Source: Myxococcota bacterium
Lineage (GTDB): Bacteria; Myxococcota_C; UBA6777
DNA: 35,398 bases
Assembly (NCBI GenBank): GCA_023150835.1
Contig: JAKLKB010000060.1
Location: 1-35,398, forward strand
Direction: 5' to 3'
Shown here: positions 326-22,335 of the stretch, in pieces
Position numbering within the stretch: the stretch's first letter is position 1
How the letters are laid out: each line of letters opens with the position of its first letter
The notes under the pieces: model-generated
The model's database searches: none
What the model saw: only the letters and a program-made list of their open reading frames with translations
Told to the model about the DNA's origin: nothing
Made by a program: the position numbers and the translations under genes

Positions 326-2053
326 TTGCAAGAAAAAACCATCCTGTATTACAGCCCTGTTGCGCGGCAGTTTGATCGTTTTTTGGAAGAGTTGGGCGAA
401 CTGCTCGGTGTGGTGGTACGCGCAGGGGGGGCGAGTGCAGTCACGACTTTCGGGGAATGTTCGCTGGTGTGGTTCCCTGTGCGCATGGCCCGCGATGTGA
501 TGGCCTTTTTGGATCGCCGTTATGTTCATTGGTTGGTGATGGATCTGCGCTTTCCTGCGGATTATGCGCCTAAAGATATCGAAGAAGATATCTGCGAAGT
601 GTATGCCTTGCTGCAACAGATGGACGAATTGGAAGACCTCGAAGCACGCTATGGATTCCATCGCATCGCAGCGTTGGTTGGGGCGGCTGAACCCGAGCCG
701 ATCGATGCTTTGTGCGTTTCTTTGGGGCATCGAGGGATCACGCATGTGATGCGTCAACACCCGCGAGGCTGCGCACCAAAAGAGCCGTATCTTGGGGCTT
801 TGATGCAGCATCTCGTGGCATGGATACGCAAACCACGCACACGAAAAAATGCCTTGTGCCTTTCAGGAGGCGGGATCACGGGGATCTTTTACGAGTTGGG
901 GGCCGTTAAGTGTCTCGATGATTGTTTGATCGGTGCGCCCGATGATCCCCTGCCACCGATCAATCAGTTCGATATGTACTTTGGGATCAGCGCAGGGGCC
1001 GTGAATTGTGGCATCCTGACGGCGGGCTACGCCGTCGAAGAGATGATGGCGGCCATCGCAGGTGTTCAAGGCGGTCGGATGGGTTCGTTGGATCTCAGCT
1101 TGTTTCACTTATCGCACTTTCACTTTTTCGATGTGATGCGGCGACTGCGTCAAGCCGTCCTCTCTTCGCTTGGAGCCGTTCAACGGGCTTTTTGGCGTCG
1201 TCAGTTTCCCGATCTCGACAAGCTACTCCTCGATTATACCGAGCTTGTCGGCCCTCCCTTTCACTCGAATCACTTTGAAAAACTGATCGCGGCCTTGTTG
1301 CAAGTCGAAGGAGCCACCAACGATTTTCGCGCCCTCCCAAGAGAGTTGTATATCGGTGCTTCCGACCAAGACGCCAAAAAACACGTCCTCTTTGGAGCCG
1401 AGGAACTTCGCGATATCCCGATCAGCAAAGCCATCCAAGCCTCGTTGAGCATCCATCCCGCTTTTTCCGCCGTCGAGATCGAAGGCCGTTATTATGAGGA
1501 TGGTGCTGTGACCAGTACATCCGGCTTTTCCGAAGCCATCCGACGCGGAGCCGATCTGATCTTTGTCTTCGATCCCTTTCTGCCCTTCGTCTCCAAAGAG
1601 GCCGGATACACCAACCGACGCGGCATCTTGTACAACATCGACCAAGATATCCGCACGATCTCTTTCACCCGCTACGAAAGCATCCGCAACTGGGCCTTGC
1701 GCAAGCATCCCAACGTCAGCTCCTATACCTTCGTCCCCTCAAACCGTTCGCGACAACTGCTCTCAAACAATCCCATGGATCATCGACCCTTTCTCCCGAT
1801 CTGGCGCGATGCCTACCTCTCTACCTTCCGACGGATCGAGATCCTCCGCCATCGTATCCAAGGCGATCTCGAAGCCCACGGATGGGGCCTTTCGCTCGAC
1901 AATGCCCGGCGTATCGCCGAACAACTCGAACACAACGAATCTCCCGCCTTTTCGGACTTCTTCTTGGAACGCGATGTCGTGATCCGCACTCCTCCCCTCT
2001 CTCTCCAACAATCCCCCCGAAAAAGAAGTGCTGTCGAAGAAACTTATGAATGA
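326..2053 (+). CDS. Patatin-like phospholipase with N-terminal extension
   Basis: Glycine-rich LSGGG oxyanion motif, G-x-S-x-G nucleophile motif (GISAG) and catalytic DG-x motif (EDGAV); ~170-aa N-terminal region of unknown fold. TTG start uncertain. Confidence 0.85.
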   Translation: MQEKTILYYSPVARQFDRFLEELGELLGVVVRAGGASAVTTFGECSLVWFPVRMARDVMAFLDRRYVHWLVMDLRFPADYAPKDIEEDICEVYALLQQMDELEDLEARYGFHRIAALVGAAEPEPIDALCVSLGHRGITHVMRQHPRGCAPKEPYLGALMQHLVAWIRKPRTRKNALCLSGGGITGIFYELGAVKCLDDCLIGAPDDPLPPINQFDMYFGISAGAVNCGILTAGYAVEEMMAAIAGVQGGRMGSLDLSLFHLSHFHFFDVMRRLRQAVLSSLGAVQRAFWRRQFPDLDKLLLDYTELVGPPFHSNHFEKLIAALLQVEGATNDFRALPRELYIGASDQDAKKHVLFGAEELRDIPISKAIQASLSIHPAFSAVEIEGRYYEDGAVTSTSGFSEAIRRGADLIFVFDPFLPFVSKEAGYTNRRGILYNIDQDIRTISFTRYESIRNWALRKHPNVSSYTFVPSNRSRQLLSNNPMDHRPFLPIWRDAYLSTFRRIEILRHRIQGDLEAHGWGLSLDNARRIAEQLEHNESPAFSDFFLERDVVIRTPPLSLQQSPRKRSAVEETYE

Positions 2054-3838: not shown

Positions 3839-3874
3839 TTTTAGCTATCGCAAGGTGAGCGGGATACCCGCTAA
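3823..3874. repeat. 16-bp direct repeat (GCGGGATACCCGCTAA x2), each copy a small hairpin, between convergent genes
   Basis: Identical 16-mers at 3823-3838 and 3859-3874; GCGGG-ATA-CCCGC stem; each copy is followed by a T-rich run. Confidence 0.7.
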
Positions 3875-4881
3875 ATTTTTTTCCTTGAGCGTTTGGGCGT
3901 GGGTTCGTCGATCACGCCGTCGAGGATCGCGCCCGGGAATCGGGCCTCTTCGAGGATGGCTCCCGAAAAATCCGCGCCCGTCAGATCCGCACACTCAAAG
4001 TCCGCTCCCGTCAAATCGGCATGGCGAAAATTCGCCCCCACAAGGCGCGAACCCGAAAAGTCCGTGTACTGGAGCTTTGCGCCTTCAAACAACGCACCGT
4101 CAAAGATCGCATCTGTGGCGATGCTGTGCGTCATGTCGGCTTGCGTGAAGTTGGCTTCTTTGGCAGAACAGCCCGAGAGATCCGCGTAGGACAGATCGGC
4201 TTTTTTGGCTTGTGTGCCTGCGATGTTTTTGAGCCGCAAGACCGCTTGTGTGCCTTCGCTGGCTTGCGCTCCGACGTACATATTGAGCGGTAGCCCCGAC
4301 ACCGAGAGCAGTTGCCAAGAGCCGCCCGCACCGCCGCTTTGAAGGAAGCGTTTGTGTTCTTCGATAAGGGCTTTCCATGCTTTTTTGTCGAGGGGAGGCG
4401 TGCTTTGAGCGAGGCTTTCGATCATCGTCCGATCCATGCTGCGGCTTGAAGGCTCGTTGCAAGAAGGGAATCGTTGTGCGCGTTGGTAGGCTTCGCGTCC
4501 TTCGGGAGTTTCTGAGATGTGCAGCAAGATCACCACTTCTTGACCGAGCCATCGAGTCAGGGCCGTAGCCTCAGTCTCGTTGAGTCCTTTGGACATCAAC
4601 AAGGACAGGATCTGTTCGGTGGGGGTGTCTTTGGGCAGTGCGTTTTCATACAAATTGGCGGTGAATCCGCCTTCTCCGCCACAAGGCCAGTACCATGCGA
4701 ATCCGGCCTTGGCTCCGCGTGTGATGTAATCGAAGATCCCGCCCATCCATGTTTGTTCGCAATCGTTGGCGTTATCAAAGTAGAGTTGGGCTTGAGTGGG
4801 CTTTTGTTTTTTCTTGTAGCCGATGCAGGTCATCCCTTCGGCGACCATCTCGTCAAACAGCGCGTATTTACGATCACGCAA
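3871..4881 (-). CDS. Pentapeptide-repeat protein with uncharacterised N-terminal region
   Basis: C-terminal A(D/N)(L/F)xx repeats (ADLSY ADLSG, ANFTQ ADMTH, ANFRH ADLTG ADFEC ADLTG ADFSG); start codon uncertain. Confidence 0.75.
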   Translation of the reverse strand: MRDRKYALFDEMVAEGMTCIGYKKKQKPTQAQLYFDNANDCEQTWMGGIFDYITRGAKAGFAWYWPCGGEGGFTANLYENALPKDTPTEQILSLLMSKGLNETEATALTRWLGQEVVILLHISETPEGREAYQRAQRFPSCNEPSSRSMDRTMIESLAQSTPPLDKKAWKALIEEHKRFLQSGGAGGSWQLLSVSGLPLNMYVGAQASEGTQAVLRLKNIAGTQAKKADLSYADLSGCSAKEANFTQADMTHSIATDAIFDGALFEGAKLQYTDFSGSRLVGANFRHADLTGADFECADLTGADFSGAILEEARFPGAILDGVIDEPTPKRSRKKI

Positions 4882-5980: not shown

Positions 5981-6349
5981 GCTTGTTTGGTAATGTGGGA
6001 TTGCGGTGGAGGCTGTGGTACAGCCTGTTTGGTAATGTGGGATTGCGGTGGAAGCTGTGGGACAGCCTGTTTGGCAATGTGGGATTGCGGCGGAGGCTGT
6101 GAGACAGCTTGTTTGGTAATGTGGGATTGCGGTGGAGGCTGTGAGACAGCTTGTTTGGTAATGTGGGATTGCGGCGGAGGCTGTGAGACAGCTTGTTTGG
6201 TAATGTGGGATTGCGGCGGAGGCTGTGAGACAGCTTGTTTGGTAATGTGGGATTGCGGCGGAGGCTGTGAGACAGCCTGTTTGGTAATGTGGGGTTGCGG
6301 TGGAGGCTGTGAGACAGCTTGTTTGGTAATGTGGGATTGCGGTGGAGGC
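5981..6349. repeat. 42-bp tandem repeat (VNTR), ~8.8 copies
   Basis: Unit GC(T/C)TGTTTGGTAATGTGGGATTGCGG(T/C)GGAGGCTGTGAGACA starting at 5981, 6023, 6065, 6107, 6149, 6191, 6233, 6275 and 6317 (last copy partial); no spacers. Confidence 0.95.
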
Positions 6350-6515: not shown

Positions 6516-8822
6516 ATGGATCAGGCAACGCACAACAAGATCGTATCTTTTCTTTGGGGGATCGCGGACGACGTTTTGCGCGACCTGTTTAGGCGCGGCA
6601 AGTATCCCGATGTGATCTTGCCGATGTGCGTCTTGCGCCGTTTGGATGCCGTACTCGAACCCACAAAACCCGCCGTTCTGGAAACCAAATCGCTCCTTGA
6701 TGAAGCAGGGATCTTGGATCAACACGCCGCACTTTGCGGGGCGTCTGGTCAGGCTTTTTACAACACCTCCCCATTTTGCCTTCGGGATCTCAAGTCGCGT
6801 GACACCACCCAGAAACTGCTTGCTGATTTTGAGGACTATCTCAACGGCTTTTCCAAAGATGTTCAAGATATCCTCGACAACTTCAAGTTTCGCAATCAGC
6901 TTGCGACACTCTCCAAAGCCGATGCGCTCGGAACCTTGGTCGAAAAGTTCCTCCATCCTGAGATCGATCTCAGTCCCGCAGGACTGGACAATCATGCGAT
7001 GGGAACGGTGTTTGAAGAGTTGGTGCGGCGCTTTAACGAAGAGAACAACGAAGAAGCGGGAGAACACTGGACGCCTCGTGATGCTGTGCGCTTGATGTCG
7101 AACCTCGTCTTTTTGCCCGTGGCCTCGCAGATCAAAGCGGGAACGTATCTGATCTATGATTGCGCTTGTGGGACAGGCGGGATGCTGACCGTGGCTGAAG
7201 AGACCTTGATGGAGATCGCCACCCAGCGCGGCCAACAAGTCAACGCACACCTGTACGGACAAGAGATCAATCCCGAAACTTACGCGATCTGCAAAGCCGA
7301 TATGTTGATCAAAGGAGAAGGAGAAAACGCCGAGAATATCAAAGGGGGTGCACAGTATTCGACGCTCTCCAACGATGCGTTCCCTGCGATGGCCTTTGAT
7401 TTCATGCTCGCCAACCCACCCTACGGCAAAAGCTGGAAAAAAGACCTTGAGCAGATGGGCGGCAAAGACGGGATGACGGACGCACGTTTTCGTGTGATGC
7501 ACAAAGGCGAGGAGCTTTTATTTCGGACGCGTTCAAGCGACGGGCAGATGCTTTTTCTCGCCAACATGGTCTCCAAGATGAACCACAAGAGCGACTTGGG
7601 ATCGCGCATCGCAGAAGTCCACAACGGAAGCTCGCTCTTTACGGGGGACGCTGGACAGGGAGAGAGCAATATCCGCCGTTGGATCATCGAAAACGATTGG
7701 TTGGAAGCTATCGTTGCGCTGCCGTTGAACCTCTTCTACAACACAGGCATCGCCACATACATCTGGGTTCTCTCGAATCGCAAGGCCGCACATCGTCAAG
7801 GCAAAGTCCAGCTTATCGATGCCTCTTCATGGTTTCAGCCTTTGCGAAAGAACCTCGGCAAGAAGAATTGCGAGCTTTCCCCTGCGGATATCCAACGCAT
7901 CTGCGATACCTTCCTTGCTTTTGAAGAAACCCCACAATCCAAGATCTTTCCGAACGAAGCCTTTGGATACCACAAGATCGTGGTCGAGCGGCCCTTGCGT
8001 CTGCACAGCCAGCTTTCCACTCCACGCATCCAAACGCTGCGCTTTGCTTCGGGGGATGAAGATCTGCGCTCCGTCTTGTTCGATGCTTTTGGCGATGCCT
8101 TGGCGGAGGACTTCGCTTCGGTCGCTGCGGAGGTGCAAGCGCGTCTGGATGCGTGGGGAACTGAAGACGTCGAAGACAGCGACGACGAAGAAGGCCCATC
8201 GAAAAAAGGCTTGCCGAAAAAGAAGAAAGACAAACTGCTCGATCCAAAGACATGGAAACGCGATGCGCGGCTTGTGGAGGTCGCAACGCTTTTGCGCGCC
8301 GAACTTGGCGGGGAGCTTTTCACGGATCACAACGTCTTTTGTGAGCGGGTGGACGACGCACTCAAGCGCCACGCCACGAAGTTGACCGCTGCGGATCGCA
8401 AAGCCTTGTTGCAAGCCGTCAGTTGGCGCGTTGAAGACGCTCCCCCTGTGATCGCCAAAAAGCACAAGCCAAGCAAAGTTAGCGCCGCTCCGTTGTTTGG
8501 ACTCTTTGAAGTCACGCTCCACGGGAATGTCTTTGTGGTCGAGTACGAAAGCGACAGCGAGATCCGCGATGCCGAGCAGATCCCCTTGCTCGAAGAGGGC
8601 GGTATCGAAGCCTTTTTCCGCCGCGAAGTCTTGCCTTACACCCCCGATGCGTGGATCAAACAAGACGCCACCAAGATCGGCTACGAGATCAGCTTCACAC
8701 GCCACTTTTATCAACCCAAGCCGCTTCGCTCCCTCGCCGAGATCCAAGCGGATATCCTTGCACTCCAAAAAGAAACCGCTGGCTTGTTGGATGGACTCTT
8801 TCAAGAGGAGATTGTGTCATGA
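6516..8822 (+). CDS. hsdM: Type I restriction-modification methyltransferase subunit (m6A)
   Basis: HsdM N-terminus (KIVSFLWGIADDVLRD), GEHWTPR, motif I DCACGTGG, YGQE, motif IV NPPY, LFYNTGIATYIW. ATG 6516 chosen because the family-typical N-terminus begins there. Confidence 0.95.
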   Translation: MDQATHNKIVSFLWGIADDVLRDLFRRGKYPDVILPMCVLRRLDAVLEPTKPAVLETKSLLDEAGILDQHAALCGASGQAFYNTSPFCLRDLKSRDTTQKLLADFEDYLNGFSKDVQDILDNFKFRNQLATLSKADALGTLVEKFLHPEIDLSPAGLDNHAMGTVFEELVRRFNEENNEEAGEHWTPRDAVRLMSNLVFLPVASQIKAGTYLIYDCACGTGGMLTVAEETLMEIATQRGQQVNAHLYGQEINPETYAICKADMLIKGEGENAENIKGGAQYSTLSNDAFPAMAFDFMLANPPYGKSWKKDLEQMGGKDGMTDARFRVMHKGEELLFRTRSSDGQMLFLANMVSKMNHKSDLGSRIAEVHNGSSLFTGDAGQGESNIRRWIIENDWLEAIVALPLNLFYNTGIATYIWVLSNRKAAHRQGKVQLIDASSWFQPLRKNLGKKNCELSPADIQRICDTFLAFEETPQSKIFPNEAFGYHKIVVERPLRLHSQLSTPRIQTLRFASGDEDLRSVLFDAFGDALAEDFASVAAEVQARLDAWGTEDVEDSDDEEGPSKKGLPKKKKDKLLDPKTWKRDARLVEVATLLRAELGGELFTDHNVFCERVDDALKRHATKLTAADRKALLQAVSWRVEDAPPVIAKKHKPSKVSAAPLFGLFEVTLHGNVFVVEYESDSEIRDAEQIPLLEEGGIEAFFRREVLPYTPDAWIKQDATKIGYEISFTRHFYQPKPLRSLAEIQADILALQKETAGLLDGLFQEEIVS

Positions 8823-9838
8823 GCTACGATGACTTGCTTGTATCCATCGCAGAAACCATCAAAGATTACAGGGAAGGCGAGATCGAGCCAAGAAATGAAC
8901 AATGCGTCGATCGGTGGGTTCAGCAGTTTGAGTCTGCGGTTCGTCGTCCCCTGTTGGTTGAGTTGGATTGGGTATTCAAGCAGACTTACCTTTCTCGCGC
9001 TGCGTTGGTAAGGGCTTTTACAGCATTGGTCAAAAAAAATTCGCCTGTGTATTGGAAAAACACACACTTCCTACAAATACAGCAAAACGGAAACAGCCAA
9101 AACGAGATGTTATCGCTTCTCAATGCTGCGATGTTGGATGTTCATGGCTTTGATCTCGGTGCTTGTGTCGGCGGTGAGCGGTATATGTACCTCGACGATA
9201 TCTCTTTTACAGGAAACCGCATCACAAATGATCTGATCCCTTGGATCAAGCAAGACGCTCCCAAAGAAACGGAGTTATGCATCGCGAGCGTGGTTCGACA
9301 TTCTTTTGGAGCCTACCAAGCCCATCAAAAATTAGAAGATGCAGTGAAGCAGTCAGGGAAATCGATCCACATCGATTGGCGATATTCCAAAGAGATGGAG
9401 AATCGCAAGACTTATCGTGACGATTCAGATGTGCTTTGGCCTTCGGTGCTTCCCGGTGATGTGTTTGTGCAAGAGTACCTCAGCGCGCAGAAATACCCCT
9501 TTGAGCCTCGCAATGCGGCTAGTCCCCCCCCCAGATACTTCTCTTCGGAAGAGGGACGCCAACTCTTGGAACGAGAGATGTTGCTTGCAGGCTTACAGAT
9601 CCGTTCCTTTTGCCAAAACCCCAAGGAGATCATGCGCCCTCTTGGTTATGGCCCTTTTGGGCTAGGGTTTGGCTCGACTTGGGTAACTTACCGTAATTGC
9701 CCAAACAACGCGCCTCTTGCGTTTTGGTGGGGTGATCCAGACTATCCGACAAACCATCCTTTTTCGCGTTGGTATCCTCTTTTTCCACGGAAAACATACG
9801 ACACGACGAACGAGGGCGTTTTTGATGACTTTGCTTAG
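8819..9838 (+). CDS. Phosphoribosyltransferase-like protein (PRTase-CE-like, conflict-system associated)
   Basis: PRPP-loop-like motif YMYLDDISFTG (9182-9214) and C-terminal GFG...YRNCPNN.PL.FW...WYPLFPR; GAGGAG RBS at 8805-8810 and ATGA overlap with the hsdM stop; 339 aa. Confidence 0.7.
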   Translation: MSYDDLLVSIAETIKDYREGEIEPRNEQCVDRWVQQFESAVRRPLLVELDWVFKQTYLSRAALVRAFTALVKKNSPVYWKNTHFLQIQQNGNSQNEMLSLLNAAMLDVHGFDLGACVGGERYMYLDDISFTGNRITNDLIPWIKQDAPKETELCIASVVRHSFGAYQAHQKLEDAVKQSGKSIHIDWRYSKEMENRKTYRDDSDVLWPSVLPGDVFVQEYLSAQKYPFEPRNAASPPPRYFSSEEGRQLLEREMLLAGLQIRSFCQNPKEIMRPLGYGPFGLGFGSTWVTYRNCPNNAPLAFWWGDPDYPTNHPFSRWYPLFPRKTYDTTNEGVFDDFA

Positions 9839-12122
9839 ACAACACCTTCCTGAACAAGCACGCACTTATGAGCGCCAGACCAGCGTTGTTTTTCTCAAGA
9901 CGAAAGAGGCGTTTGGTGGACTGTCCAACATGGCGGGCGGCTATCCTTTGCGCGTGAACCGCATCGTGCTTCTCACATCCGAAGCCCTCTATCAAGCCTG
10001 CCGCTTTCCCCATCTTCCCGATGTTCAGCGCATCATCCTTGCGGAAAAAAGCCCCATGACCGCAAAGATGCGTACGAAACCCTATCGTGCAGACTCTCGG
10101 CCTGATTGGGATCACGTTCGCGTCAAGATCATGCGTTGGTGTTTGCGTGTGAAACTTGCCCTTCACTGGGACAGCTTTGGCGAGCTGCTGCTCAGTACAG
10201 AAGAGCGCCCCATCGTCGAAGAATCCCGAAAAGATGATTTCTGGGGAGCCAAGCCCACGGATAGCCAGACGCTCGTTGGAATGAACGTGTTAGGCCGCTT
10301 GTTGATGGAACTCCGCGAAGCTATCAAAACAGAACCGAAAGAAGCGTTGTTGCGTGTCGAACCGCTCAACATCCAGCGTTTCTTGCTGCTCGATGCAGCC
10401 ATCGAAACGGTTGTCTCCCCAACTCTCTCGACGCCGCGCACATTGCACATCGTCCCCGCCTTCTTTCCCACGCCCTCCCCACCACCCGCACAGATCTCAC
10501 TCTTCGACACGAACCCTCCTTCACACGCCGAACGTGCAGACACCGTTATTCCTTCGCAGCTTCACACCGCAAATACAGCTTCTCCCCCTCACGTCTTGGA
10601 TACATCCATGAACACAACCACGACCGAACCTTCCACCGCGACCACCGAACCTTCCCTCCCACACCCACCACGCAACCCTCAACCTTATCCAGCCTACAAG
10701 GCTTCGGGTTCACCTTGGATCGGACAAGTGCCTGAACATTGGGAAGTGAAGCAAGCAAAGCACTTGGGTTCTTTTTTTAAAGGGGTAGGAGGAACGAAAG
10801 AAGACAATGTTCTTTTGGGGGTTCCATGTGTTCGCTACGGTGATCTTTACACAACACACCATAGCTTCATCCGCCGCAGCAAAGTATTTGTTCACGAGGG
10901 GCGTACGCACGATTACACGCCGATCCAGTACGGTGATGTTCTTTTTGCTGCGTCTGGCGAAACAATCGAAGAGATCGGTAAGTCCGCCGTAAATTTGATG
11001 CGAGAGTCCGCTGTTTGCGGCGGTGATACAATCATTTTGCGCCCAAATTCTTTTATTTATCCACCATTTTTAGGTTATGCAACAGATTGTCGGACATCCC
11101 AAACACAAAAGGCGATGATGGGCAGAGGAACCACAGTCAAACATATTTACCCAAGCGAACTCAAAAATCTCTTGATGCCGCTCCCTCCGTTGGAGGAGCA
11201 GGCCGCAATGGTGCGTTATCTCGATGATGCGTGTGGTCGTCTGGATCGAGCGATTCGAGCGAAGCGAAAGATGCTCGCGCTGCTTCACGAACAAAAGCAA
11301 GCCATCATTCACCGCGCTGTCACCCAAGGTCTCGACCCTCACGCACCCCGCAAACCGTCGGGCATCCCTTGGCTCGGTGAGATTCCGCAGCATTGGGAGG
11401 TGTTGCGGTTGGGGAGAGTAACGAATCTTATAACGGGGTATCCCTTCAAAAGCGAATGTTTCACGCAAAAGGAATCTGCGACGCGGCTTCTCAGAGGGAT
11501 CAATGTAACGCCAGCAGGATTGCGGTGGGACTCGACCGTTCGATGGGAACGAGCGTACAATGACGGTCTCGATGTGTTCTGCCTTGAAGTCGGTGACATC
11601 ATATTAGGGATGGATCGCCCAATCATCGCGTCTGGCGTTCGTGCTGCACAAGTTGAAGCGAAGGATGTCCCATCGCTTCTGCTTCAGCGAGTCGCCCGAA
11701 TTCGGCCAACTGAGAGACTGGACAACAGCTTCCTACTTATGTTGCTGAGAGGGAAACTCTTTGCTTATTACATCGCTCCAATTTTCACTGGCATAAGCGT
11801 GCCGCATCTTAGTCCAGAGCAAATTCTGAATTTCAAAATCGTGCTCCCGCCAAAGTCTGAGCAATCGGAAATCGTGCGATACGTTGAGGCGGAAACCGTA
11901 TCCCTAAATACCGCCATTGCCCGCATCGAAAGAGAAATCGCTTTACTGCAAGAGTACCGCACGCGGTTGGTGTCGGATGTGGTGACGGGGAAGTGGGATG
12001 TGCGAGAGGCGGCCAAGCATGTGAGGGAGATTTCGTATGGGGAGGATGCGGTCGATGGGGAGGATGTGGAGGGTGATGGGTTGGTTGAAGATGCGGACGA
12101 GGCGGAGGATGCGGAGGGATGA
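9825..12122 (+). CDS. hsdS: NADAR (YbiA-like N-glycosidase) domain fused to type I R-M specificity subunit HsdS
   Basis: N-terminal NADAR motifs (FGGLSNM, TSEALYQA, DW..VRV.IM, LL.T..RPIVEES..D.FWG, GMNVLGRLLMELR), a Pro/Thr-rich linker, then two TRD plus conserved-helix repeats of HsdS (PWIGQVPEHW...PLPPLEEQ; PWLGEIPQHW...LPPKSEQ...LVSDVVTGK). No in-frame stop; ATG 9825 overlaps the upstream gene by 14 nt. Confidence 0.9.
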   Translation: MTLLRQHLPEQARTYERQTSVVFLKTKEAFGGLSNMAGGYPLRVNRIVLLTSEALYQACRFPHLPDVQRIILAEKSPMTAKMRTKPYRADSRPDWDHVRVKIMRWCLRVKLALHWDSFGELLLSTEERPIVEESRKDDFWGAKPTDSQTLVGMNVLGRLLMELREAIKTEPKEALLRVEPLNIQRFLLLDAAIETVVSPTLSTPRTLHIVPAFFPTPSPPPAQISLFDTNPPSHAERADTVIPSQLHTANTASPPHVLDTSMNTTTTEPSTATTEPSLPHPPRNPQPYPAYKASGSPWIGQVPEHWEVKQAKHLGSFFKGVGGTKEDNVLLGVPCVRYGDLYTTHHSFIRRSKVFVHEGRTHDYTPIQYGDVLFAASGETIEEIGKSAVNLMRESAVCGGDTIILRPNSFIYPPFLGYATDCRTSQTQKAMMGRGTTVKHIYPSELKNLLMPLPPLEEQAAMVRYLDDACGRLDRAIRAKRKMLALLHEQKQAIIHRAVTQGLDPHAPRKPSGIPWLGEIPQHWEVLRLGRVTNLITGYPFKSECFTQKESATRLLRGINVTPAGLRWDSTVRWERAYNDGLDVFCLEVGDIILGMDRPIIASGVRAAQVEAKDVPSLLLQRVARIRPTERLDNSFLLMLLRGKLFAYYIAPIFTGISVPHLSPEQILNFKIVLPPKSEQSEIVRYVEAETVSLNTAIARIEREIALLQEYRTRLVSDVVTGKWDVREAAKHVREISYGEDAVDGEDVEGDGLVEDADEAEDAEG

Positions 12123-12170: not shown

Positions 12171-13202
12171 TTGGCGAAGCAGAAGAAGCAGAGCAAAGGC
12201 GCGGAAGAGAGTACGCCGTTTGATGAATTGATGAAGCATCTCGCGGATCGGTATGGGCGTGAGTTGGTGACGTATTTGGGGGGATTGTCGGAGGTGGAGC
12301 GTTGTGAGTCTGTCGGCGGAGAAGTGGAGATCACGCATCGTTTGACAGATCGGGTATTTCGGGTGAAAGCAAAGTTATCCCCCGAAGGAGAACAGGAAGA
12401 GTTTTTGGTGCATTTGGAGTTTGAGTCGTCTTACAACAAGTGGATGGGACAACGCTTGGGGACATACGGTTGGCATCTTTGCGAGAGAGAGAACTTGCCA
12501 GTGATGCACCTCGTTTGGTATGTGAGCGAAGAAACTCCGTCGTACTGGCCTTTGGGAGAATGGCAAAGAGAACGGGAAGAGGAGATGTGGATCGGGGGTC
12601 GGTTGGTGGGGTTGGTGTGTTGGCGGGAGATCTGGTTTTCAGGGAAGTACAAGGCTGAAGATTTTGTGAAAGAAGCACCAGCGTACTTGCTGCCGTTTGC
12701 GGCGTTGATGGAAGGGGCAGAGCGGCCCTTTATCAAGAGACTGGCCGAGGCGATTATGAAGAGCGATGTTTCCGAACAGCACAAACAAGACTTGTTGTTG
12801 ATGGCAAGTTTTTTGTTTGCGCGTTTTTTTGGAGTCCAGATCGTGCAAGAGGAGATCAAGATGAGCTTGCTTGAACCGAATCCATTGGTTGAGTACTTCA
12901 TGCAAAGAGGCCAAGAGAAAGGAAGACAGGAAGGAAGGCAAGAGATTATCGAAAAGATGTTGGGGCAGGGCCTTCCTCCGCAAGTGGTGGCCAATTTCAC
13001 TGGCTTATCGGTCGAAGAGGTGGAAGAGATCAAAGAAGCGCGGCGAGAAAAAACGCAGAGCAAGCAGCGTGTTGTGTTGCGGATGTTGGAGCGTGGCTTT
13101 TCTGTGGAAGAGATCGTTGATGTGACAGAGATGAAAAGAGAAGAGATCGAGCGTATTCAAGAGCAAACCAGCAGCAAGGGGATGCCCGAAGGGGAGGGGT
13201 GA
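12171..13202 (+). CDS. Rpn/YhgA-like PD-(D/E)XK nuclease (putative-transposase family)
   Basis: FD.LMK.L N-terminus, TDRVF...VHLEFES nuclease-like motif, LPV...V.Y, GQEKGRQEGRQE segment and C-terminal ML..G......I...T.L..EE motifs; TTG start after GGAGG. Confidence 0.75.
   Translation: MAKQKKQSKGAEESTPFDELMKHLADRYGRELVTYLGGLSEVERCESVGGEVEITHRLTDRVFRVKAKLSPEGEQEEFLVHLEFESSYNKWMGQRLGTYGWHLCERENLPVMHLVWYVSEETPSYWPLGEWQREREEEMWIGGRLVGLVCWREIWFSGKYKAEDFVKEAPAYLLPFAALMEGAERPFIKRLAEAIMKSDVSEQHKQDLLLMASFLFARFFGVQIVQEEIKMSLLEPNPLVEYFMQRGQEKGRQEGRQEIIEKMLGQGLPPQVVANFTGLSVEEVEEIKEARREKTQSKQRVVLRMLERGFSVEEIVDVTEMKREEIERIQEQTSSKGMPEGEG
12849..12863 (+). promoter_or_regulatory. Putative internal ribosome-binding site and in-frame ATG within the Rpn-like gene
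   Basis: GAGGAG-atcaag-ATG, with ATG at 12861 in frame with 12171; would yield a 113-aa C-terminal protein. Confidence 0.5.
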
Positions 13203-13310
13203 GGGGCAGCACGAAAAAGGAGCGTGTGACACGGAGTGTCGGAAGAAGGTGTTAGAGAGGAAAAGGCAGGGACGAAGGTCATCCATCACGAGGAAAGAGG
13301 AGGAAGTCTG

Positions 13311-16300
13311 ATGCGTGTCACAGATATCTCGGAGAAGGGTTTGGAGTTGTTGATCGTGGGGGAGATGACAGGGACGGATGGGGTGACACCACAAGCGGAG
13401 ACTCTTTCGGAAAACGCGGTGGGGCCGAGCAGTACTTATGCAGCGAACAAAAAGGGCTGGTTGTTGGGGAGGGCCAAGGATTATGATCGGGGCCACGCGT
13501 TGGATCTTGTGCAGCTATGTGCCTTTTTGCACGCGACGCAGCCCACGCTGTTTGAGAAAGTCCCCTTGCACGGGGAGCTTGATCCCAAGGATAGTCAGAC
13601 TGCGAAGTTTCTTGCGCGGCTATCATCGGAGATCGGAAAGGTGGGGGTGGTGGATGTCTTGCGGAAGGGGATAGAACACGGGCCGCACCATGTGTGGCTC
13701 TTTTATGGAACGCCCTCGGAAGGGAACACCACCGCAGAGATATTGCACACACAAAACCGTTTTAGCGTGACACGGCAGTTGCGTTACAGCCACGACGAGA
13801 CACGGAACGCGTTGGATCTGGTGTTGTTTGTGAACGGCCTTCCCATCGCGACGTTGGAACTCAAGAACAGCCTGACCAAGCAAACGGTGGCGGATGCAGT
13901 CGAGCAGTACAAGACAGATCGAGATAAGCGAGAAAAGCTGTTTGGTTTGGGTCGTTGTGTGGTGCATTTTGCGGTAGATGATGCAGAAGTGCGGATGTGT
14001 ACGGAGCTACAGGGGAAAGCGTCGTGGTTTTTGCCCTTTAACAAGGGTTGGGAGGATGGCGCGGGGAATCCGCCGAATCCAGCGGGACTCAAGACGGATT
14101 ATTTGTGGAAGGATATCTTTGCGCCGAAGAGTTTGATACATCTGCTCGAACATTTTGCACAGATGGTGGAGATCAAAGATCCTGAAACGAACAAGAAGAA
14201 GAAGTATCAGCTTTTTCCGCGCTATCACCAACTGGATGTGGTGCGATGTTGCCTTGCGGATGTGCAACGCCGTGGCGTGGGGGGGCGTTATCTGATCCAG
14301 CACTCGGCGGGGAGTGGGAAATCGAACTCGATAGCTTGGTTGGCGCATCAACTGGTGGGGCTTCAACAAGAGGGACAGTCGGTCTTTGATTCGGTGGTGG
14401 TGTTGACGGATCGACGGGTGTTGGACAACCAACTGGCGCAGACGATTCGACAATTGATGCAGATCAGGGCAACGGTGGGACACGCGCAAGAGGCAGGTGA
14501 TCTCAAGCGATTTTTGCAGGAAGGCAAAAAGATCATCATCAGTACAATTCAAAAGTTTCCCTTCATTTTGGAGGAACTCAGCGGGGAGGACAAAGGGCGG
14601 AAGTTTGCGTTGATCATCGACGAAGCCCATTCGAGCCAAGGCGGGAAAAGTTCAACGGCGGTGAATACGGCCTTGTCGGAGGGGTTGTCTGTGGAGGAAG
14701 AGGAAGATGGGGAGGATCTGATCAACCGCGCACTCGAACAACGGAGTGCATCGAGGAAGATGTTGAGCAACGCGAGTTACTTTGCGTTCACGGCGACGCC
14801 CAAGAACAAGACGTTGGAGATGTTTGGAGAGGGGCTTCCAGCCGATGCAGAAGGCAGAGTGAGATATCGGCCATTCCATCATTATTCGATGAAACAGGCG
14901 ATCCAAGAGGGTTTTATCTTGGATGTGCTCAAGAGTTTCACGCCGATCCAGAGCTATTACAGGCTGACAAAGACCATCGAGGGAGATCCCGAATTTGACG
15001 TGCGGAGGGCGCAAAAAAAGCTGCGCCGTTATGTCGAAAGCCACGAGTATGCGATCCGTTTGAAGGCGGAGATCATGGTGGATCACTTTCATGAGCGGGT
15101 GAGCGGGTTAAAAAAGATCGGTGGAAAAGCGCGAGCGATGGTGGTTTGCAATGGTATTGCGCGAGCCATCGAGTATTTTCGGGCATTTCAGGCGTATTTG
15201 ACGGAGCGAAAAAGCTCCTACAAAGCCATCGTCGCCTTTTCGGGGGAGTTTTTACATCAAGGGATCAACGAAACGGAAGCGTCGTTGAATGGCTTTGCGA
15301 GTGATGCCATCGCGAGCAAGATCAAAGAAGATCCGTACCGTTTTTTGATCTGTGCAGACAAATTCCAAACGGGGTATGACGAACCGTTGTTGCATACGAT
15401 GTACGTAGACAAGCCGTTGTCGGGGATCAAAGCGGTGCAAACGCTGTCTCGTCTGAATCGCGCCCACCCAGAAAAGTACGATGTCTTCGTGCTGGACTTT
15501 TACAACGACGCCACAGCGATAGCGGATGCTTTTTCAACGTACTACCGAACAACCGTCTTGAGCGAAGGAACCGATCCGAATCGGTTGAACGATCTGAAGC
15601 GTGATCTGGATCGGTTGGGTGTGTACGCTGCGGAGGAAGTTGAGCGGTTGGTGGGTCTGTTTCTTTCGGGTGCATCGCGGGAAAAGATCGATCCGCTGTT
15701 GGACATCTGGGTGTCAGAGTATCAAGGCTTGGACGAAGAAGAACAGATCGAATTCAAGGGGAAAGCCAAAGCCTTTGTGCGTGTGTACAGTTTTTTGGCG
15801 TCGGTATCATCGTATCCTCACGCAGGATGGGAGGGTTTGTCGATTGTGTTGAATTTGCTGATTCCCAAGCTACCCGCGCCAAAAGAGGAAGATCGGGCCA
15901 AAGGCATCCTTGAGACGGTGGATATGGAGAGTTATCGTGCAGAAAAGCAGGCCGTACAAAGTCTGCGGCTTGTTGATGCAGATGCGGAGATCGCGCCTGT
16001 TCCTGTGGAGAACGGTGGGGGGCGGGGAGAAGCAGAGATGGATCGTTTGAGCAGGATCCTTGATGCGTTCAATGCGCATTTTGGGGCATTGTTCACCGAC
16101 GCGGATCGGGTGATACGACGTATTCGCGAAGATATAGCGCCCAAAGTCGCCGCAGATACAGCCTACCAAAACGCCAAAAACAACACACCTGCGACTGCGC
16201 GAATCGAACACGACAAAGTGTTGGATAGAGTGATGCTTTCCTTGTTGAAGGATGACACCGAAGTCTATAAACAATTCCAAAACAACGACCAGTTCAAGCG

Positions 16301-16370
16301 AGAGGTGCGGGATCTGGTGTATCGGTTGACGAGCGGAGGCTTGGCTGAAGGCAAGAAAGATGTGGTTTGA
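13311..16370 (+). CDS. hsdR: Type I restriction endonuclease subunit R
   Basis: Nuclease motif DLVLFVNGLPIATLELKN, Walker A HSAGSGKS, DEAH box, FTATPK, FQTGYDEP, QTLSRLNR; ATG 13311 follows GAGGAGG. Confidence 0.95.
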   Translation: MRVTDISEKGLELLIVGEMTGTDGVTPQAETLSENAVGPSSTYAANKKGWLLGRAKDYDRGHALDLVQLCAFLHATQPTLFEKVPLHGELDPKDSQTAKFLARLSSEIGKVGVVDVLRKGIEHGPHHVWLFYGTPSEGNTTAEILHTQNRFSVTRQLRYSHDETRNALDLVLFVNGLPIATLELKNSLTKQTVADAVEQYKTDRDKREKLFGLGRCVVHFAVDDAEVRMCTELQGKASWFLPFNKGWEDGAGNPPNPAGLKTDYLWKDIFAPKSLIHLLEHFAQMVEIKDPETNKKKKYQLFPRYHQLDVVRCCLADVQRRGVGGRYLIQHSAGSGKSNSIAWLAHQLVGLQQEGQSVFDSVVVLTDRRVLDNQLAQTIRQLMQIRATVGHAQEAGDLKRFLQEGKKIIISTIQKFPFILEELSGEDKGRKFALIIDEAHSSQGGKSSTAVNTALSEGLSVEEEEDGEDLINRALEQRSASRKMLSNASYFAFTATPKNKTLEMFGEGLPADAEGRVRYRPFHHYSMKQAIQEGFILDVLKSFTPIQSYYRLTKTIEGDPEFDVRRAQKKLRRYVESHEYAIRLKAEIMVDHFHERVSGLKKIGGKARAMVVCNGIARAIEYFRAFQAYLTERKSSYKAIVAFSGEFLHQGINETEASLNGFASDAIASKIKEDPYRFLICADKFQTGYDEPLLHTMYVDKPLSGIKAVQTLSRLNRAHPEKYDVFVLDFYNDATAIADAFSTYYRTTVLSEGTDPNRLNDLKRDLDRLGVYAAEEVERLVGLFLSGASREKIDPLLDIWVSEYQGLDEEEQIEFKGKAKAFVRVYSFLASVSSYPHAGWEGLSIVLNLLIPKLPAPKEEDRAKGILETVDMESYRAEKQAVQSLRLVDADAEIAPVPVENGGGRGEAEMDRLSRILDAFNAHFGALFTDADRVIRRIREDIAPKVAADTAYQNAKNNTPATARIEHDKVLDRVMLSLLKDDTEVYKQFQNNDQFKREVRDLVYRLTSGGLAEGKKDVV

Positions 16371-21574: not shown

Positions 21575-21624
21575 GAGATTCCTCGCAAAGTCAAGAAGGT
21601 GTTGGATCGGGGGTTTTAAGGGGA

Positions 21625-22335
21625 TTAGGAACGAGAGGAGGTGGTGGGGCGGGCATAGAGGGCCCAAAGCCGATCGAACTCTTGTTGAAAAGCGCGGATC
21701 ATCGAGGGATTGCGTGTGATGATCAGGTTTTCGTGGTTGTTGGTGCTTGCGGAGCGCGTCCAGTTGAAGCTGCCGTTGAGGAGGATGGATTGGTCGAGGA
21801 TGGCGAATTTGTGGTGCATGTGATCGCTGTTTTGATCGACAGCGGTGGGGATTCCGGTTTGGTTGAGGTTGGTCACATCGGAGCCGAGGTCGGCGGCTTT
21901 GTCGTTGTCGGAGAGGATGCGGACGGAGAGGCCGTTTTGGTGGGCTTTTTCGAGGATGCGGGAGAGGCGGTCATCCGTGATGGTGTAGACGCAGACATCG
22001 AGGGTCTTTCGGGCGCTTTGGAGGACTTCAAGAAGGCGGGCGTAGGAACGTGCATCAGGGAAGAACAAGGCTTCGTCGGCGTCGGTGGTTTGGGTGGGGG
22101 ACTGTTGGAGAAGGATCTTGGTGAGGGAGGCGATCCATTCGAGGGCAAGGCGCTCTTGGGGATGGCGGAGGGCTTGTTGTGCGCAAGCAAAGATCTCGTG
22201 GCGCAGGAGTTGGAGTTGTTCGGTGGAGGGTTGGGCGTCTTCAAGGAGTTGCTTGAAGACGGTGGCTTCGTTGCGGGAGAGTTGTTGATCGTCGAAACTT
22301 TGTTGGAGAAAGGTGCGGAATTGTTGGATATCCAT
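21625..22335 (-). CDS. Phospholipase D-family (Nuc-like, single HKD) nuclease/hydrolase
   Basis: HHKFAILD...GSFNWT..A...N.EN motif, LDVCVYTITD and an N-terminal helical extension. Confidence 0.88.
   Translation of the reverse strand: MDIQQFRTFLQQSFDDQQLSRNEATVFKQLLEDAQPSTEQLQLLRHEIFACAQQALRHPQERLALEWIASLTKILLQQSPTQTTDADEALFFPDARSYARLLEVLQSARKTLDVCVYTITDDRLSRILEKAHQNGLSVRILSDNDKAADLGSDVTNLNQTGIPTAVDQNSDHMHHKFAILDQSILLNGSFNWTRSASTNNHENLIITRNPSMIRAFQQEFDRLWALYARPTTSSRS

What the first reader, a model, noticed from the sequence alone, without database searches (positions are those of the whole stretch)
8819..12122. Candidate new defence module: PRTase-like effector plus NADAR eraser fused to HsdS inside a type I R-M operon
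Seen: a gene with a PRPP-loop-like motif (YLDDISFTG) sits between hsdM and hsdS, overlapping both neighbours (ATGA with hsdM; 14 nt with the next gene). The next gene starts with a complete NADAR domain and runs without a stop into HsdS. Established: NADAR enzymes hydrolyse N-glycosidic bonds (YbiA on riboflavin intermediates; the DarT1-associated NADAR removes ADP-ribose from guanine in DNA), and type I R-M loci host back-up toxins such as PrrC and DarTG. Inference: no DarT-like ADP-ribosyltransferase is visible here, so the PRTase-like protein occupies the toxin position. It may attach phosphoribose to a base, nucleic acid or protein, and the NADAR domain may remove it. Tethering the antidote to HsdS could make the toxin a guard that fires when phage inhibitors disable or degrade the R-M complex.
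Basis: partly seen in the sequence, partly recalled or inferred. Interest (0 to 1): 0.9.

Follow-up and report, generated by a model that had tools for sequence, protein, structure and literature searches.

The report
DS-32 phage defence fused to HsdS
A two-gene anti-phage system already validated in E. coli (DS-32) sits inside a restriction-modification operon here, with its second enzyme joined to the DNA-recognition subunit; this arrangement is widespread, was not found described in the papers searched, and hints that the system works on DNA.

Summary
The operon is hsdM, a 339-aa PRTase, NADAR fused in frame to HsdS, an Rpn-like ORF, then hsdR, with the stated 4-nt and 14-nt overlaps.

The module is not new. 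Both proteins pass NCBIfam's curated cut-offs for DS32_1 and DS32_2. DS-32 is a PRTase + NADAR pair validated against phage in E. coli (DefensePredictor).

What looks undescribed is the context:
- NADAR directly follows the PRTase in 79 of 80 loci from other species (the 80th is cut).
- In 32 loci NADAR is fused to HsdS inside a type I R-M operon.
- In 6 it is fused to a DUF1156 methylase. Neighbours were scanned in two of these and form an Hma system.
- In 3 it is fused to a helix-hairpin-helix domain.
- 23 of 39 complete stand-alone NADARs end in a sliding-clamp-binding-like motif (17 exactly Q..[LM]F). 20 of 32 HsdS fusions keep it in the disordered linker; the window has QISLF.

I read this as DS-32 with its eraser tethered to host DNA machinery. 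That favours a DNA-linked phosphoribosyl adduct as the toxic product, but this is inferred. Verdict: new variant of a known kind.

The parts
6519..8822 (+). hsdM (type I R-M methylase). The ORF is open from GTG 6429; the ATG at 6519 is my choice of start.
   Evidence: Pfam N6_Mtase 5.5e-53 and HsdM_N 5.3e-21. Same-strand upstream hsdM homologues in 31 of 32 NADAR-HsdS loci, 47-75% identical in the BLAST segments.
8819..9838 (+). DS-32A: PRTase-CE phosphoribosyltransferase-like effector, 339 aa. PRPP-loop YLDDISFTG at nt 9188-9214.
   Evidence: NCBIfam NF053875 DS32_1_antiphage 355.5 bits, cut-off 250. Pfam PF24390 2.6e-46. Model pLDDT 85.2. VIA Z 9.2, rmsd 2.7 over 114 residues to UPRT 1i5e_A.
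9825..12122 (+). One ORF of 765 aa: DS-32B NADAR fused to HsdS.
   Evidence: 1097 NADAR-bearing homologues of similar length (420-1339 aa); 99 of the 120 listed carry both NADAR and Methylase_S.
9861..10403 (+). NADAR domain (protein residues 13-193).
   Evidence: NF053876 DS32_2_antiphage 279.1 bits, cut-off 240. Aligns to E. coli YbiA 2b3w at 6.5e-15. Glu53, Glu132, Asp137, Trp140 invariant and Asp138 nearly so.
10425..10667 (+). Disordered, low-complexity linker (residues 201-281).
   Evidence: pLDDT below 50 over residues 201-281 in the full-length model. Variable in alignment A2.
10491..10505 (+). QISLF: sliding-clamp-binding-like motif (residues 223-227).
   Evidence: Q223 is nearly invariant in A2. 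Motif statistics. Consensus Q-L-x-L-F from PMC4549789 passages. Binding not tested.
10680..12014 (+). HsdS part (residues 286-730), two target-recognition domains and conserved helices.
   Evidence: PADLOC Specificity_I 3.1e-95 over residues 286-730. Pfam Methylase_S, two stretches. Well folded in the model.
12171..13202 (+). 343-aa ORF between hsdS and hsdR, with an Rpn-like C-terminal tail. Accessory: not found in the other 80 loci by BLAST.
   Evidence: TIGR01784 Rpn family 39.6 bits, below its cut-off of 52.1, residues 244-287 only. No 'Rpn' query hit in any locus.
13236..16370 (+). hsdR (type I restriction subunit).
   Evidence: Pfam SWI2_SNF2 4.3e-26, HSDR_N 6.4e-19, ResIII, T1R_D3-like. 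Same-strand downstream hsdR homologues above 40% identity in 30 of 32 fused loci.

Best explanation
This is a type I restriction-modification operon that carries the known DS-32 anti-phage pair as an in-operon cassette: hsdM, DS-32A PRTase, DS-32B NADAR::HsdS, one accessory ORF, hsdR.

Shown:
- Both DS-32 genes are present above curated cut-offs.
- The PRTase has a type I PRTase core with an intact PRPP loop.
- The NADAR has the YbiA-type active-site residues.
- The NADAR is joined to a complete HsdS by an ~80-residue disordered linker.
- The same cassette recurs in many phyla, either alone or fused to DNA-recognising partners.
- A clamp-binding-like motif marks the C-terminal end of the NADAR module.

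Inferred mechanism: the PRTase is the toxic effector. It uses PRPP to put ribose-5-phosphate on a nucleobase through an N-glycosidic bond, most likely on DNA. The NADAR is the eraser that cuts that bond, as NADARs do for ADP-ribosyl-guanine and for phosphoribosylamino-pyrimidines. The eraser is held on host DNA machinery: covalently on HsdS or a DUF1156/HmaB-type methylase, through helix-hairpin-helix domains, or through the beta-clamp motif. Host DNA is therefore kept clean. Phage DNA is not kept clean, nor is the cell once a phage disables the R-M complex or the replisome, and replication then stops.

My odds: it is DS-32 embedded in R-M, 0.9. PRTase as effector with NADAR as antagonist, 0.6. 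The adduct is on DNA and the tethering gives self-protection or sensing, 0.35.
For: Identity: NF053875 355.5 bits against a cut-off of 250, and NF053876 279.1 against 240. DS-32 is described as PRTase + NADAR, validated, with the NADAR structurally like the DarTG antitoxin (bioRxiv passages; Science version passages).

PRTase fold. PRPP loop invariant.

NADAR active site: alignment to YbiA and invariant residues. They are mapped to E43/E125/D130/W133 of the P. nicotianae NADAR by their spacing (PMC11543638 passages).

Obligate pairing: NADAR directly downstream of the PRTase in 79 of 80 loci.

DNA tethering:
- 32 loci have the HsdS fusion, with hsdM in 31 and hsdR in 30.
- 6 loci have a fusion to a long C-terminal part. 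Five were scanned by Pfam and all are DUF1156. L016 lies in HmaA-PRTase-NADAR::HmaB-HmaC and L059 has the same layout by Pfam.
- 3 loci have an HhH fusion.

Clamp-like motif:
- 17 of 39 complete stand-alone NADARs end exactly in Q..[LM]F; 5 more end in Q..[LMI][FL] and 1 in PALF.
- Shuffled tails give a mean of 0.0135 and a maximum of 1 in 2000 shuffles.
- 1 of 1512 other ORFs in the same loci ends that way.
- 20 of 32 HsdS fusions keep the motif in the linker, against a shuffle mean of 0.35 and maximum of 3.
- Two distant plasmid-record homologues end in ...QILLL and ...QINMFDV.
- The window's linker is disordered.

Translational coupling: the 4-nt hsdM/PRTase overlap occurs here and in 16 of 32 fused loci.
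Against: - No biochemical data exist for DS-32 in the text I could read. The target of the PRTase is unknown.
- The PRTase effectors that have been characterised act on nucleotide pools, not DNA. Retron-Eco11 depletes PRPP (PMC12746101 abstract). ShosT disrupts purine metabolism (PMC11961720 abstract start).
- This NADAR is YbiA-like. It aligns to YbiA from residue 17, so it lacks a long N-terminal extension such as the one proposed to bind ssDNA in DarT1-associated NADARs.
- The motif is only five residues and its binding to DnaN is untested.
- 8 of 39 stand-alone NADARs show no motif. By my reading of the printed tails, none of the 6 DUF1156 fusions has the strict form.
- 41 of 80 loci have no R-M partner, so the R-M link is optional.
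- The 80 loci are the best 80 of 301 relatives, so they are biased towards the window's type.
Confidence: 0.5

Rival explanations
1. Nucleotide-pool model. The PRTase acts on free bases and PRPP, as in Retron-Eco11 and ShosT. Either the NADAR hydrolyses the toxic nucleotide product, or PRTase plus NADAR together run a futile cycle (PRPP to ribose-5-phosphate plus pyrophosphate) that starves phage replication. Fusion to HsdS would then serve only co-expression or dosage.
For: Retron-Eco11 PRTase activation is associated with PRPP depletion (PMC12746101 abstract). [quoted passage not shown] The window's PRTase hits the PADLOC retron models PRTase_III-A weakly, 7.5e-9. The NADAR is of the YbiA type, whose known substrates are small phosphoribosyl N-glycosides (PMC11543638 passages).
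Against: It does not explain why the NADAR, and never the PRTase, is fused to DNA-recognising partners of at least three kinds (41 of 79 loci). It also does not explain why stand-alone NADARs end in a clamp-binding-like motif.
Confidence: 0.3
2. In fused loci the NADAR-HsdS antidote reports the state of the R-M complex. When a phage anti-restriction protein binds or degrades the complex, the NADAR is lost or inhibited and the PRTase kills the cell, as PrrC does with EcoprrI (the PrrC comparison is recalled, not from a call).
For: The cassette sits between subunit genes of two unrelated methylation-based systems. In each case the NADAR is fused to the recognition or methylation subunit: HsdS in 32 loci, and a DUF1156 methylase in 6, with Hma neighbours confirmed in the two loci scanned. 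The genes are translationally coupled to hsdM.
Against: 41 of 80 loci are stand-alone, and the preprint describes the validated DS-32 simply as a two-gene system. The fused state was gained or lost at least 8 times on the PRTase tree, so the pair works with or without R-M. There is no evidence that the PRTase contacts the R-M complex.
Confidence: 0.2
3. Not defence. The pair is a DNA or metabolite damage-control accessory of the R-M enzyme, comparable to YbiA with the PRTase-like YbiB in the LexA-controlled dinG-ybiB-ybiA operon.
For: E. coli ybiA lies in a LexA-controlled operon together with ybiB, which is predicted to bind DNA and to have phosphoribosyltransferase activity (PMC11125620 passage).
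Against: Both proteins score above the equivalog cut-offs of the DS-32 anti-phage families. The distribution is patchy: 0 of 30 other genomes searched, 5 of them in the same family. The neighbours are defence genes: R-M, Hma, and a GmrSD_N gene in L001.
Confidence: 0.05

Closest known systems
DS-32 (DS-32A PRTase + DS-32B NADAR), DefensePredictor; bioRxiv 10.1101/2025.01.08.631726 and Science 2026 (PMC13092281)
   Same: Both genes are present in the same order, above the NCBIfam equivalog cut-offs. The pair is conserved in 79 of 80 loci.
   Different: Here the NADAR is the N-terminal domain of the only HsdS of a type I R-M operon, and the pair lies between hsdM and hsdS. The passages I read describe DS-32 as a two-gene system and mention no R-M fusion and no clamp motif. 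The supplements could not be seen.
DarTG1 (DarT1 ADP-ribosyltransferase + NADAR antitoxin), PMC11543638
   Same: A NADAR hydrolase is paired with a transferase that makes an N-glycosidic ribosyl bond. DarT1 modifies guanine in DNA and the NADAR reverses it.
   Different: There is no DarT or other ART domain here. The transferase is a PRTase, so the donor would be PRPP rather than NAD+. The NADAR has the YbiA-type Glu rather than the Asp of the BC4488 subfamily, and no long N-terminal extension.
PRTase effectors of retron type III-A3 (Retron-Eco11) and ShosTA
   Same: PRTase-like toxic effectors in anti-phage systems. The window's PRTase gives weak hits to the PADLOC PRTase_III-A models.
   Different: Their partners are a reverse transcriptase with msDNA, or ShosA, not a NADAR. 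Their reported effects are on PRPP and purine pools.
PrrC anticodon nuclease in the EcoprrI type I R-M locus (recalled, not from a call)
   Same: A latent toxin gene is embedded among hsd genes and is functionally tied to the R-M complex.
   Different: PrrC is an RNase held by the R-M proteins. Here the antidote, not the toxin, is covalently part of HsdS, and no trigger is known.
Hma system (HmaA helicase, HmaB methylase, HmaC ATPase; PADLOC models)
   Same: In L016 the same PRTase + NADAR cassette is inserted between HmaA and HmaB with the NADAR fused to HmaB. L059 has the same layout by Pfam.
   Different: This is a different host system; the window itself has type I R-M.
YbiB-YbiA in the LexA-controlled operon of E. 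coli K-12 (PMC11125620 passage)
   Same: An independent pairing of a PRTase-like, DNA-binding protein with a NADAR in a DNA-damage context.
   Different: YbiB is not a PRTase-CE protein, and no defence role is reported.

Membership tests
DS-32 anti-phage system | PRTase-like protein matching the DS32_1 equivalog model | tested here: met
   NF053875: 355.5 bits, cut-off 250, residues 6-324 on profile positions 1-322 of 322.
DS-32 anti-phage system | NADAR protein matching the DS32_2 equivalog model | tested here: met
   NF053876: 279.1 bits, cut-off 240, residues 13-193 on profile positions 1-181 of 181.
DS-32 anti-phage system | The two genes are adjacent and co-oriented, PRTase first | tested here: met
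   14-nt overlap. Same order in 79 of 80 loci.
DS-32 anti-phage system | Protects against phage | not testable with these tools
   Shown for the E. coli system only, per passages of the preprint.
Type I PRTase fold | PRPP-binding loop (acidic pair followed by T/S-G) on a Rossmann-like core | tested here: met
   YLDDISFTG, with D126, D127, F130 and G132 invariant in 24 sequences. Z 9.2, rmsd 2.7, 114 residues aligned to UPRT 1i5e_A, and all 50 rows shown are PRTases or PyrR.
Type I PRTase fold | Phosphoribosyl transfer from PRPP | not testable with these tools
   Inferred from fold and motif only.
NADAR superfamily (YbiA subfamily) | NADAR domain above Pfam's gathering score | tested here: met
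   PF08719: 80.6 bits, cut-off 35.1. YbiA 2b3w at 6.5e-15.
NADAR superfamily (YbiA subfamily) | Active-site Glu (E43 equivalent), subfamily-defining Glu (E125 equivalent), Asp and Trp (D130/W133 equivalents) | tested here: met
   Glu53 (SEALYQ), Glu132 (IVEE), Asp137 and Trp140 (DDFWG). All four are invariant in 23 sequences. The mapping uses the E-x4-D-x2-W spacing given in PMC11543638 and the YbiA alignment.
Type I restriction-modification system | HsdM, HsdS and HsdR all present in one operon | tested here: met
   HsdS exists only as the C-terminal part of the fusion.
DarTG1 | DarT ADP-ribosyltransferase toxin next to the NADAR | tested here: not met
   No ART or DarT family among the Pfam hits of the five operon proteins at E <= 0.1. 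The upstream gene is a PRTase.
Beta-clamp-binding proteins | Q-L-x-L-F-like pentapeptide at the C-terminus or in a disordered stretch | tested here: met
   Window QISLF lies in a linker with pLDDT below 50. 17 of 39 stand-alone homologues end in Q..[LM]F. Consensus from PMC4549789.
Beta-clamp-binding proteins | Physical binding to DnaN | not tested

The most novel reading that the evidence does not exclude
DS-32 writes and erases a new kind of DNA mark, a base-linked ribose-5-phosphate made from PRPP. The eraser travels with host DNA machinery: on the beta sliding clamp through a C-terminal QxxLF motif, or welded to the specificity or methylase subunit of R-M-like systems. Host DNA that is replicated or methylated by the host is then cleaned, while phage DNA stays blocked. 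Self/non-self discrimination would come from where the repair enzyme is tethered rather than from a sequence or a methyl mark.
Probability: 0.25. Interest if true: 0.85.

Novelty: new variant of a known kind. Interest (0 to 1): 0.55.

Why it matters
DS-32 has been validated, but the text I could read gives no mechanism for it. Two patterns found here turn that into concrete bench tests.

1. The NADAR, never the PRTase, is fused again and again to DNA-recognising partners: HsdS, a DUF1156/HmaB-type methylase, and HhH domains.
2. The free NADARs end in a clamp-binding-like motif.

Both point to DNA, and to the replication fork, as the place where the system acts. If that is right, PRPP-dependent base phosphoribosylation would join ADP-ribosylation as a reversible DNA modification used in immunity. 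It would also show a type I R-M enzyme carrying a second, chemically unrelated defence on its specificity subunit.

For annotation, about a thousand proteins, several of them named 'type I restriction enzyme S subunit' or 'NADAR domain-containing protein' by their sources, are probably DS-32B::HsdS fusions. Only 99 of the 120 listed were seen to carry both domains.

Tried and rejected
- Complex prediction of the PRTase (alignment A1) with the NADAR domain (A2, residues 1-200) gave no verdict: score 0.00 against a mark of 0.32, and the controls were not run. It says nothing either way about binding.
- The first scan of genome contigs with the single PRTase sequence found no relative. The scan with alignment A1 found 301.
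- A DNA search of E. coli genomes with a gammaproteobacterial DS-32 locus (L037) found no match. I therefore could not read the E. coli DS-32B C-terminus or its neighbourhood.
- tblastn of the PRTase against phage records found no match. Against plasmid records it found 7 records at 28-37% identity.
- Sequence search of solved structures with the PRTase profile gave only a chance-level hit, E 0.068.
- Literature. No paper in the held library links NADAR with HsdS or type I R-M, or DS-32 with a clamp. The searches were 'PRTase'+'NADAR', 'NADAR'+'type I restriction', 'PRTase-CE', 'DS-32'+'DefensePredictor', 'NADAR'+'HsdS' (hits are strain genotypes), 'DUF1768'+'restriction', 'NADAR'+'phosphoribosyltransferase'+'defense' and 'NADAR'+'clamp' (hits unrelated). 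Passage look-ups in PMC9503650, PMC11543638, PMC12945103, PMC11125620 and 10.1101/2025.09.30.679545 also found nothing. Subscription journals and supplements are not covered.
- A C-terminal degron reading of the QxxLF tail was considered and set aside, because the motif stays conserved when it is internal in the fused forms.
- A frameshift or misassembly explanation for the fusion was rejected on the strength.
Full report
**1. What is in the window**

On the + strand there is one tight operon:
- hsdM, 6519-8822. The ORF is open from 6429.
- A 339-aa gene, 8819-9838.
- A 765-aa gene, 9825-12122.
- A 343-aa ORF, 12171-13202.
- hsdR, 13236-16370.

The raw sequence shows the ATGA overlap of hsdM with the 339-aa gene and the 14-nt overlap with the next gene. 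Pfam gives these matches:
- HsdM: N6_Mtase and HsdM_N.
- HsdR: SWI2_SNF2, HSDR_N, ResIII and T1R_D3-like.
- The 339-aa protein: PRTase-CE (PF24390), 2.6e-46, over residues 30-324.
- The 765-aa protein: NADAR at residues 23-167 plus Methylase_S.

PADLOC places a complete type I specificity subunit on residues 286-730 at 3.1e-95.

**2. The pair is DS-32**

NCBIfam names both proteins at equivalog level. DS32_1_antiphage scores 355.5 bits against a cut-off of 250. DS32_2_antiphage scores 279.1 bits against a cut-off of 240, covering NADAR residues 13-193.

The DefensePredictor preprint describes DS-32 as a validated two-gene system made of a PRTase (DS-32A) and a NADAR protein (DS-32B). It notes that the NADAR resembles the DarTG antitoxin structurally while the PRTase resembles DarT in neither sequence nor structure, and it suggests toxin-antitoxin partner swapping (passages). 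The Science version mentions NADAR and PRTase domains among the validated systems (passages). So 'candidate new defence module' does not hold; the module is known.

**3. The two enzymes look active**

*PRTase.* The model built on 24 homologues has mean pLDDT 85.2 and pTM 0.85. Foldseek's two matches at E <= 0.001 are uracil PRTases, and nearly all rows shown are type I PRTases or PyrR (5e38_C, 7.9e-4). In the VIA second look, all 50 rows shown are PRTases or PyrR, with the best at Z 9.2, rmsd 2.7 over 114 residues to 1i5e_A. The tool's own note says that Z near 8-9 alone is middling. The case rests on the uniform list together with the Pfam hit and the PRPP loop YLDDISFTG, in which D126, D127, F130 and G132 are invariant. 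The conserved C-terminal block (RNCPNN.PLA.WWGD) has no counterpart in the solved PRTases.

*NADAR.* The domain aligns to E. coli YbiA at 6.5e-15. From the residue numbers given for the P. nicotianae NADAR (E43, E125, D130, W133) and their spacing, the equivalents here are Glu53, Glu132, Asp137 and Trp140. All four are invariant in 23 fused homologues. Glu at the E125 position makes this a YbiA-subfamily NADAR, not the Asp type found next to DarT1.

**4. The fusion is real and common**

The NADAR part alone finds 1097 proteins of 420-1339 aa at E <= 0.001. In the 120 listed, the NADAR part is about 68-75% identical, and 99 carry both NADAR and Methylase_S domains. They come from many lineages; source names include Sulfurimicrobium, Poseidonocella, Caldimonas and Syntrophaceae.

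The full-length model shows a folded NADAR and a folded HsdS joined by a stretch with pLDDT below 50 over residues 201-281, followed by a disordered acidic tail.

**5. Neighbourhood survey**

A scan of one genome per species with the PRTase alignment gave 301 relatives. The best 80 were fetched with flanks, so the sample leans towards the window's type. My ORF and BLAST survey gave the following.

- A NADAR ORF lies directly downstream of the PRTase in 79 of 80 loci. In the 80th (L053) the locus ends 81 nt after the PRTase.
- 32 loci have the NADAR-HsdS fusion. 31 of them have a same-strand hsdM, and 30 have a same-strand hsdR above 40% identity.
- 41 loci have a NADAR without a long C-terminal partner (one is cut, one is split). 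Three of these carry a C-terminal helix-hairpin-helix domain: L063, L075 and L078.
- 6 loci have the NADAR fused to a long C-terminal part. Pfam shows DUF1156 in the five tested. The sixth (L039, cut) shows the same conserved peptide by eye.
- In L016 the neighbours are HmaA (5.6e-170), NADAR::HmaB (1.5e-113) and HmaC (1e-84) of the Hma system. L059 has the same layout by Pfam.
- hsdM and the PRTase overlap by 4 nt in 16 of the 32 fused loci. In 8 there is a gap of more than 1 kb. In L001 that gap holds a GmrSD_N gene.

On a tree of the 81 PRTases, the HsdS-fused state needs 13 changes by parsimony, and at least 8 are forced by well-supported branches. The labels are nevertheless clustered (shuffled mean 25.8). 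The window sits on a long branch of 0.83.

The family is patchy. The DS32_1 model matched 0 of 30 other genomes searched, 5 of them from the same family and some of them incomplete. The own genome has one copy. phmmer finds 933 cluster representatives at E <= 0.001 and 309 at E <= 1e-30 among 1.84 billion.

**6. A clamp-binding-like motif**

Reading the tails after the NADAR domain, I saw that the free NADARs end in ...Q-x-x-L-F. Examples are QPALF, QAALF, QHTLF, QSDMF and QPSLF.

Counts for the 39 complete stand-alone ORFs:
- 17 end exactly in Q..[LM]F.
- 5 more end in Q..[LMI][FL].
- 1 ends in PALF.
- 8 have a loose match inside the tail rather than at its end. At least two of these look like chance matches.
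- 8 have none.

Controls: shuffling each tail gives a mean of 0.0135 and never more than 1 in 2000 shuffles. Of 1512 other ORFs of at least 150 aa in the same loci, 1 ends that way.

In the 32 HsdS fusions the motif survives inside the otherwise variable linker. 20 have Q..[LM]F, against a shuffle mean of 0.35 and maximum of 3, and 26 have [SPAL]LF. The window has QISLF at residues 223-227 (nt 10491-10505), and Q223 is nearly invariant in alignment A2.

Two distant homologues on plasmid records (PRTase about 35% identical) end in ...QILLL and ...QINMFDV.

The bacterial beta-clamp-binding consensus is Q-L-x-L-F, often at the C-terminus (PMC4549789 passages). Binding was not tested. By my reading of the tails printed, the DUF1156 fusions lack the strict motif.

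**7. How it most likely works**

*Shown:* identity, folds, intact motifs, obligate pairing, and the repeated tethering of the NADAR.

*Inferred:* the PRTase makes an N-glycosidic ribose-5-phosphate adduct, and the NADAR cuts it. This matches the chemistry of known NADARs, which act on ADP-ribosyl-guanine in DNA and on phosphoribosylamino-pyrimidines.

Only the NADAR is joined to DNA-recognising partners of at least three kinds, and the free forms carry a clamp-like tail. I therefore favour DNA as the place of action. On this reading, the eraser is held on host DNA machinery, so host DNA is protected, or the loss of that machinery is sensed.

Weighing against this, the PRTase effectors studied so far act on PRPP and purine pools, and this NADAR lacks a long N-terminal extension such as the one proposed to bind ssDNA in DarT1-linked NADARs. 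The pool model is therefore the main rival.

It cannot be general, because half of the surveyed loci have no R-M partner.

**8. Novelty and limits**

In the held library I found no paper that mentions a NADAR-HsdS fusion, DS-32 inside R-M or Hma operons, or a clamp motif on a NADAR (searches; passages). Subscription journals and all supplements were out of reach. The DefensePredictor supplements may hold DS-32 toxicity, mutant or phage-panel data. I could not read the E. coli DS-32 sequences.

Verdict: a known system in a widespread context and architecture that I did not find described, with a new and testable clue to its mechanism.

Noticed in passing
window 5981-6349: A 42-bp tandem repeat, 8.8 copies, 95% matches, lies just upstream of hsdM. 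Both strands read as long repetitive ORFs. Its function is unknown; it could be a promoter-region or phase-variation element.
   Followed up: partly
window 12171-13202 (+): A 343-aa ORF is inserted between hsdS and hsdR. Only its C-terminal about 45 residues match the Rpn recombination-promoting nuclease family, below the cut-off. PADLOC gives no hit. It has no BLAST counterpart in the 80 other loci.
   Followed up: partly
window 16682-21667 (-): A DNA polymerase III alpha subunit of 1661 aa carries an intein with a LAGLIDADG homing-endonuclease domain: Intein_splicing 2e-20 and LAGLIDADG_3 3.7e-13.
   Followed up: partly
window 326-2053 (+) and 3871-4881 (-): A patatin-like phospholipase and a pentapeptide-repeat protein lie upstream of the R-M operon. 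Whether they belong to a defence island was not examined.
   Followed up: no
L001:6152-7948 (gaps of similar size in L004, L014, L015, L025, L035): In L001 a 598-aa GmrSD_N (DUF262-type) gene sits between hsdM and the PRTase, so some of these operons stack a third defence gene. The other five loci have a gap of similar size that I did not scan.
   Followed up: partly
L059:2438-4165 and L059:12574-15915: In the Bradyrhizobium Hma + DS-32 locus, the HmaC-like ATPase carries an N-terminal Swt1-like HEPN domain, and a DUF6119 gene lies upstream.
   Followed up: no
L003:1165-2259: A 364-aa NADAR has the QPSLF motif followed by 134 more residues with no Pfam match. Its PRTase is nearly identical to that of the HsdS-fused L004. 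It may be the remnant of a fusion or a further partner domain.
   Followed up: no
L082 (record CP125156.1): A Klebsiella pneumoniae record of 5.37 Mb is labelled 'plasmid unnamed2' in the plasmid collection. By its size it looks like a chromosome. Its DS-32-like pair lies next to an ISKpn26 transposase.
   Followed up: no
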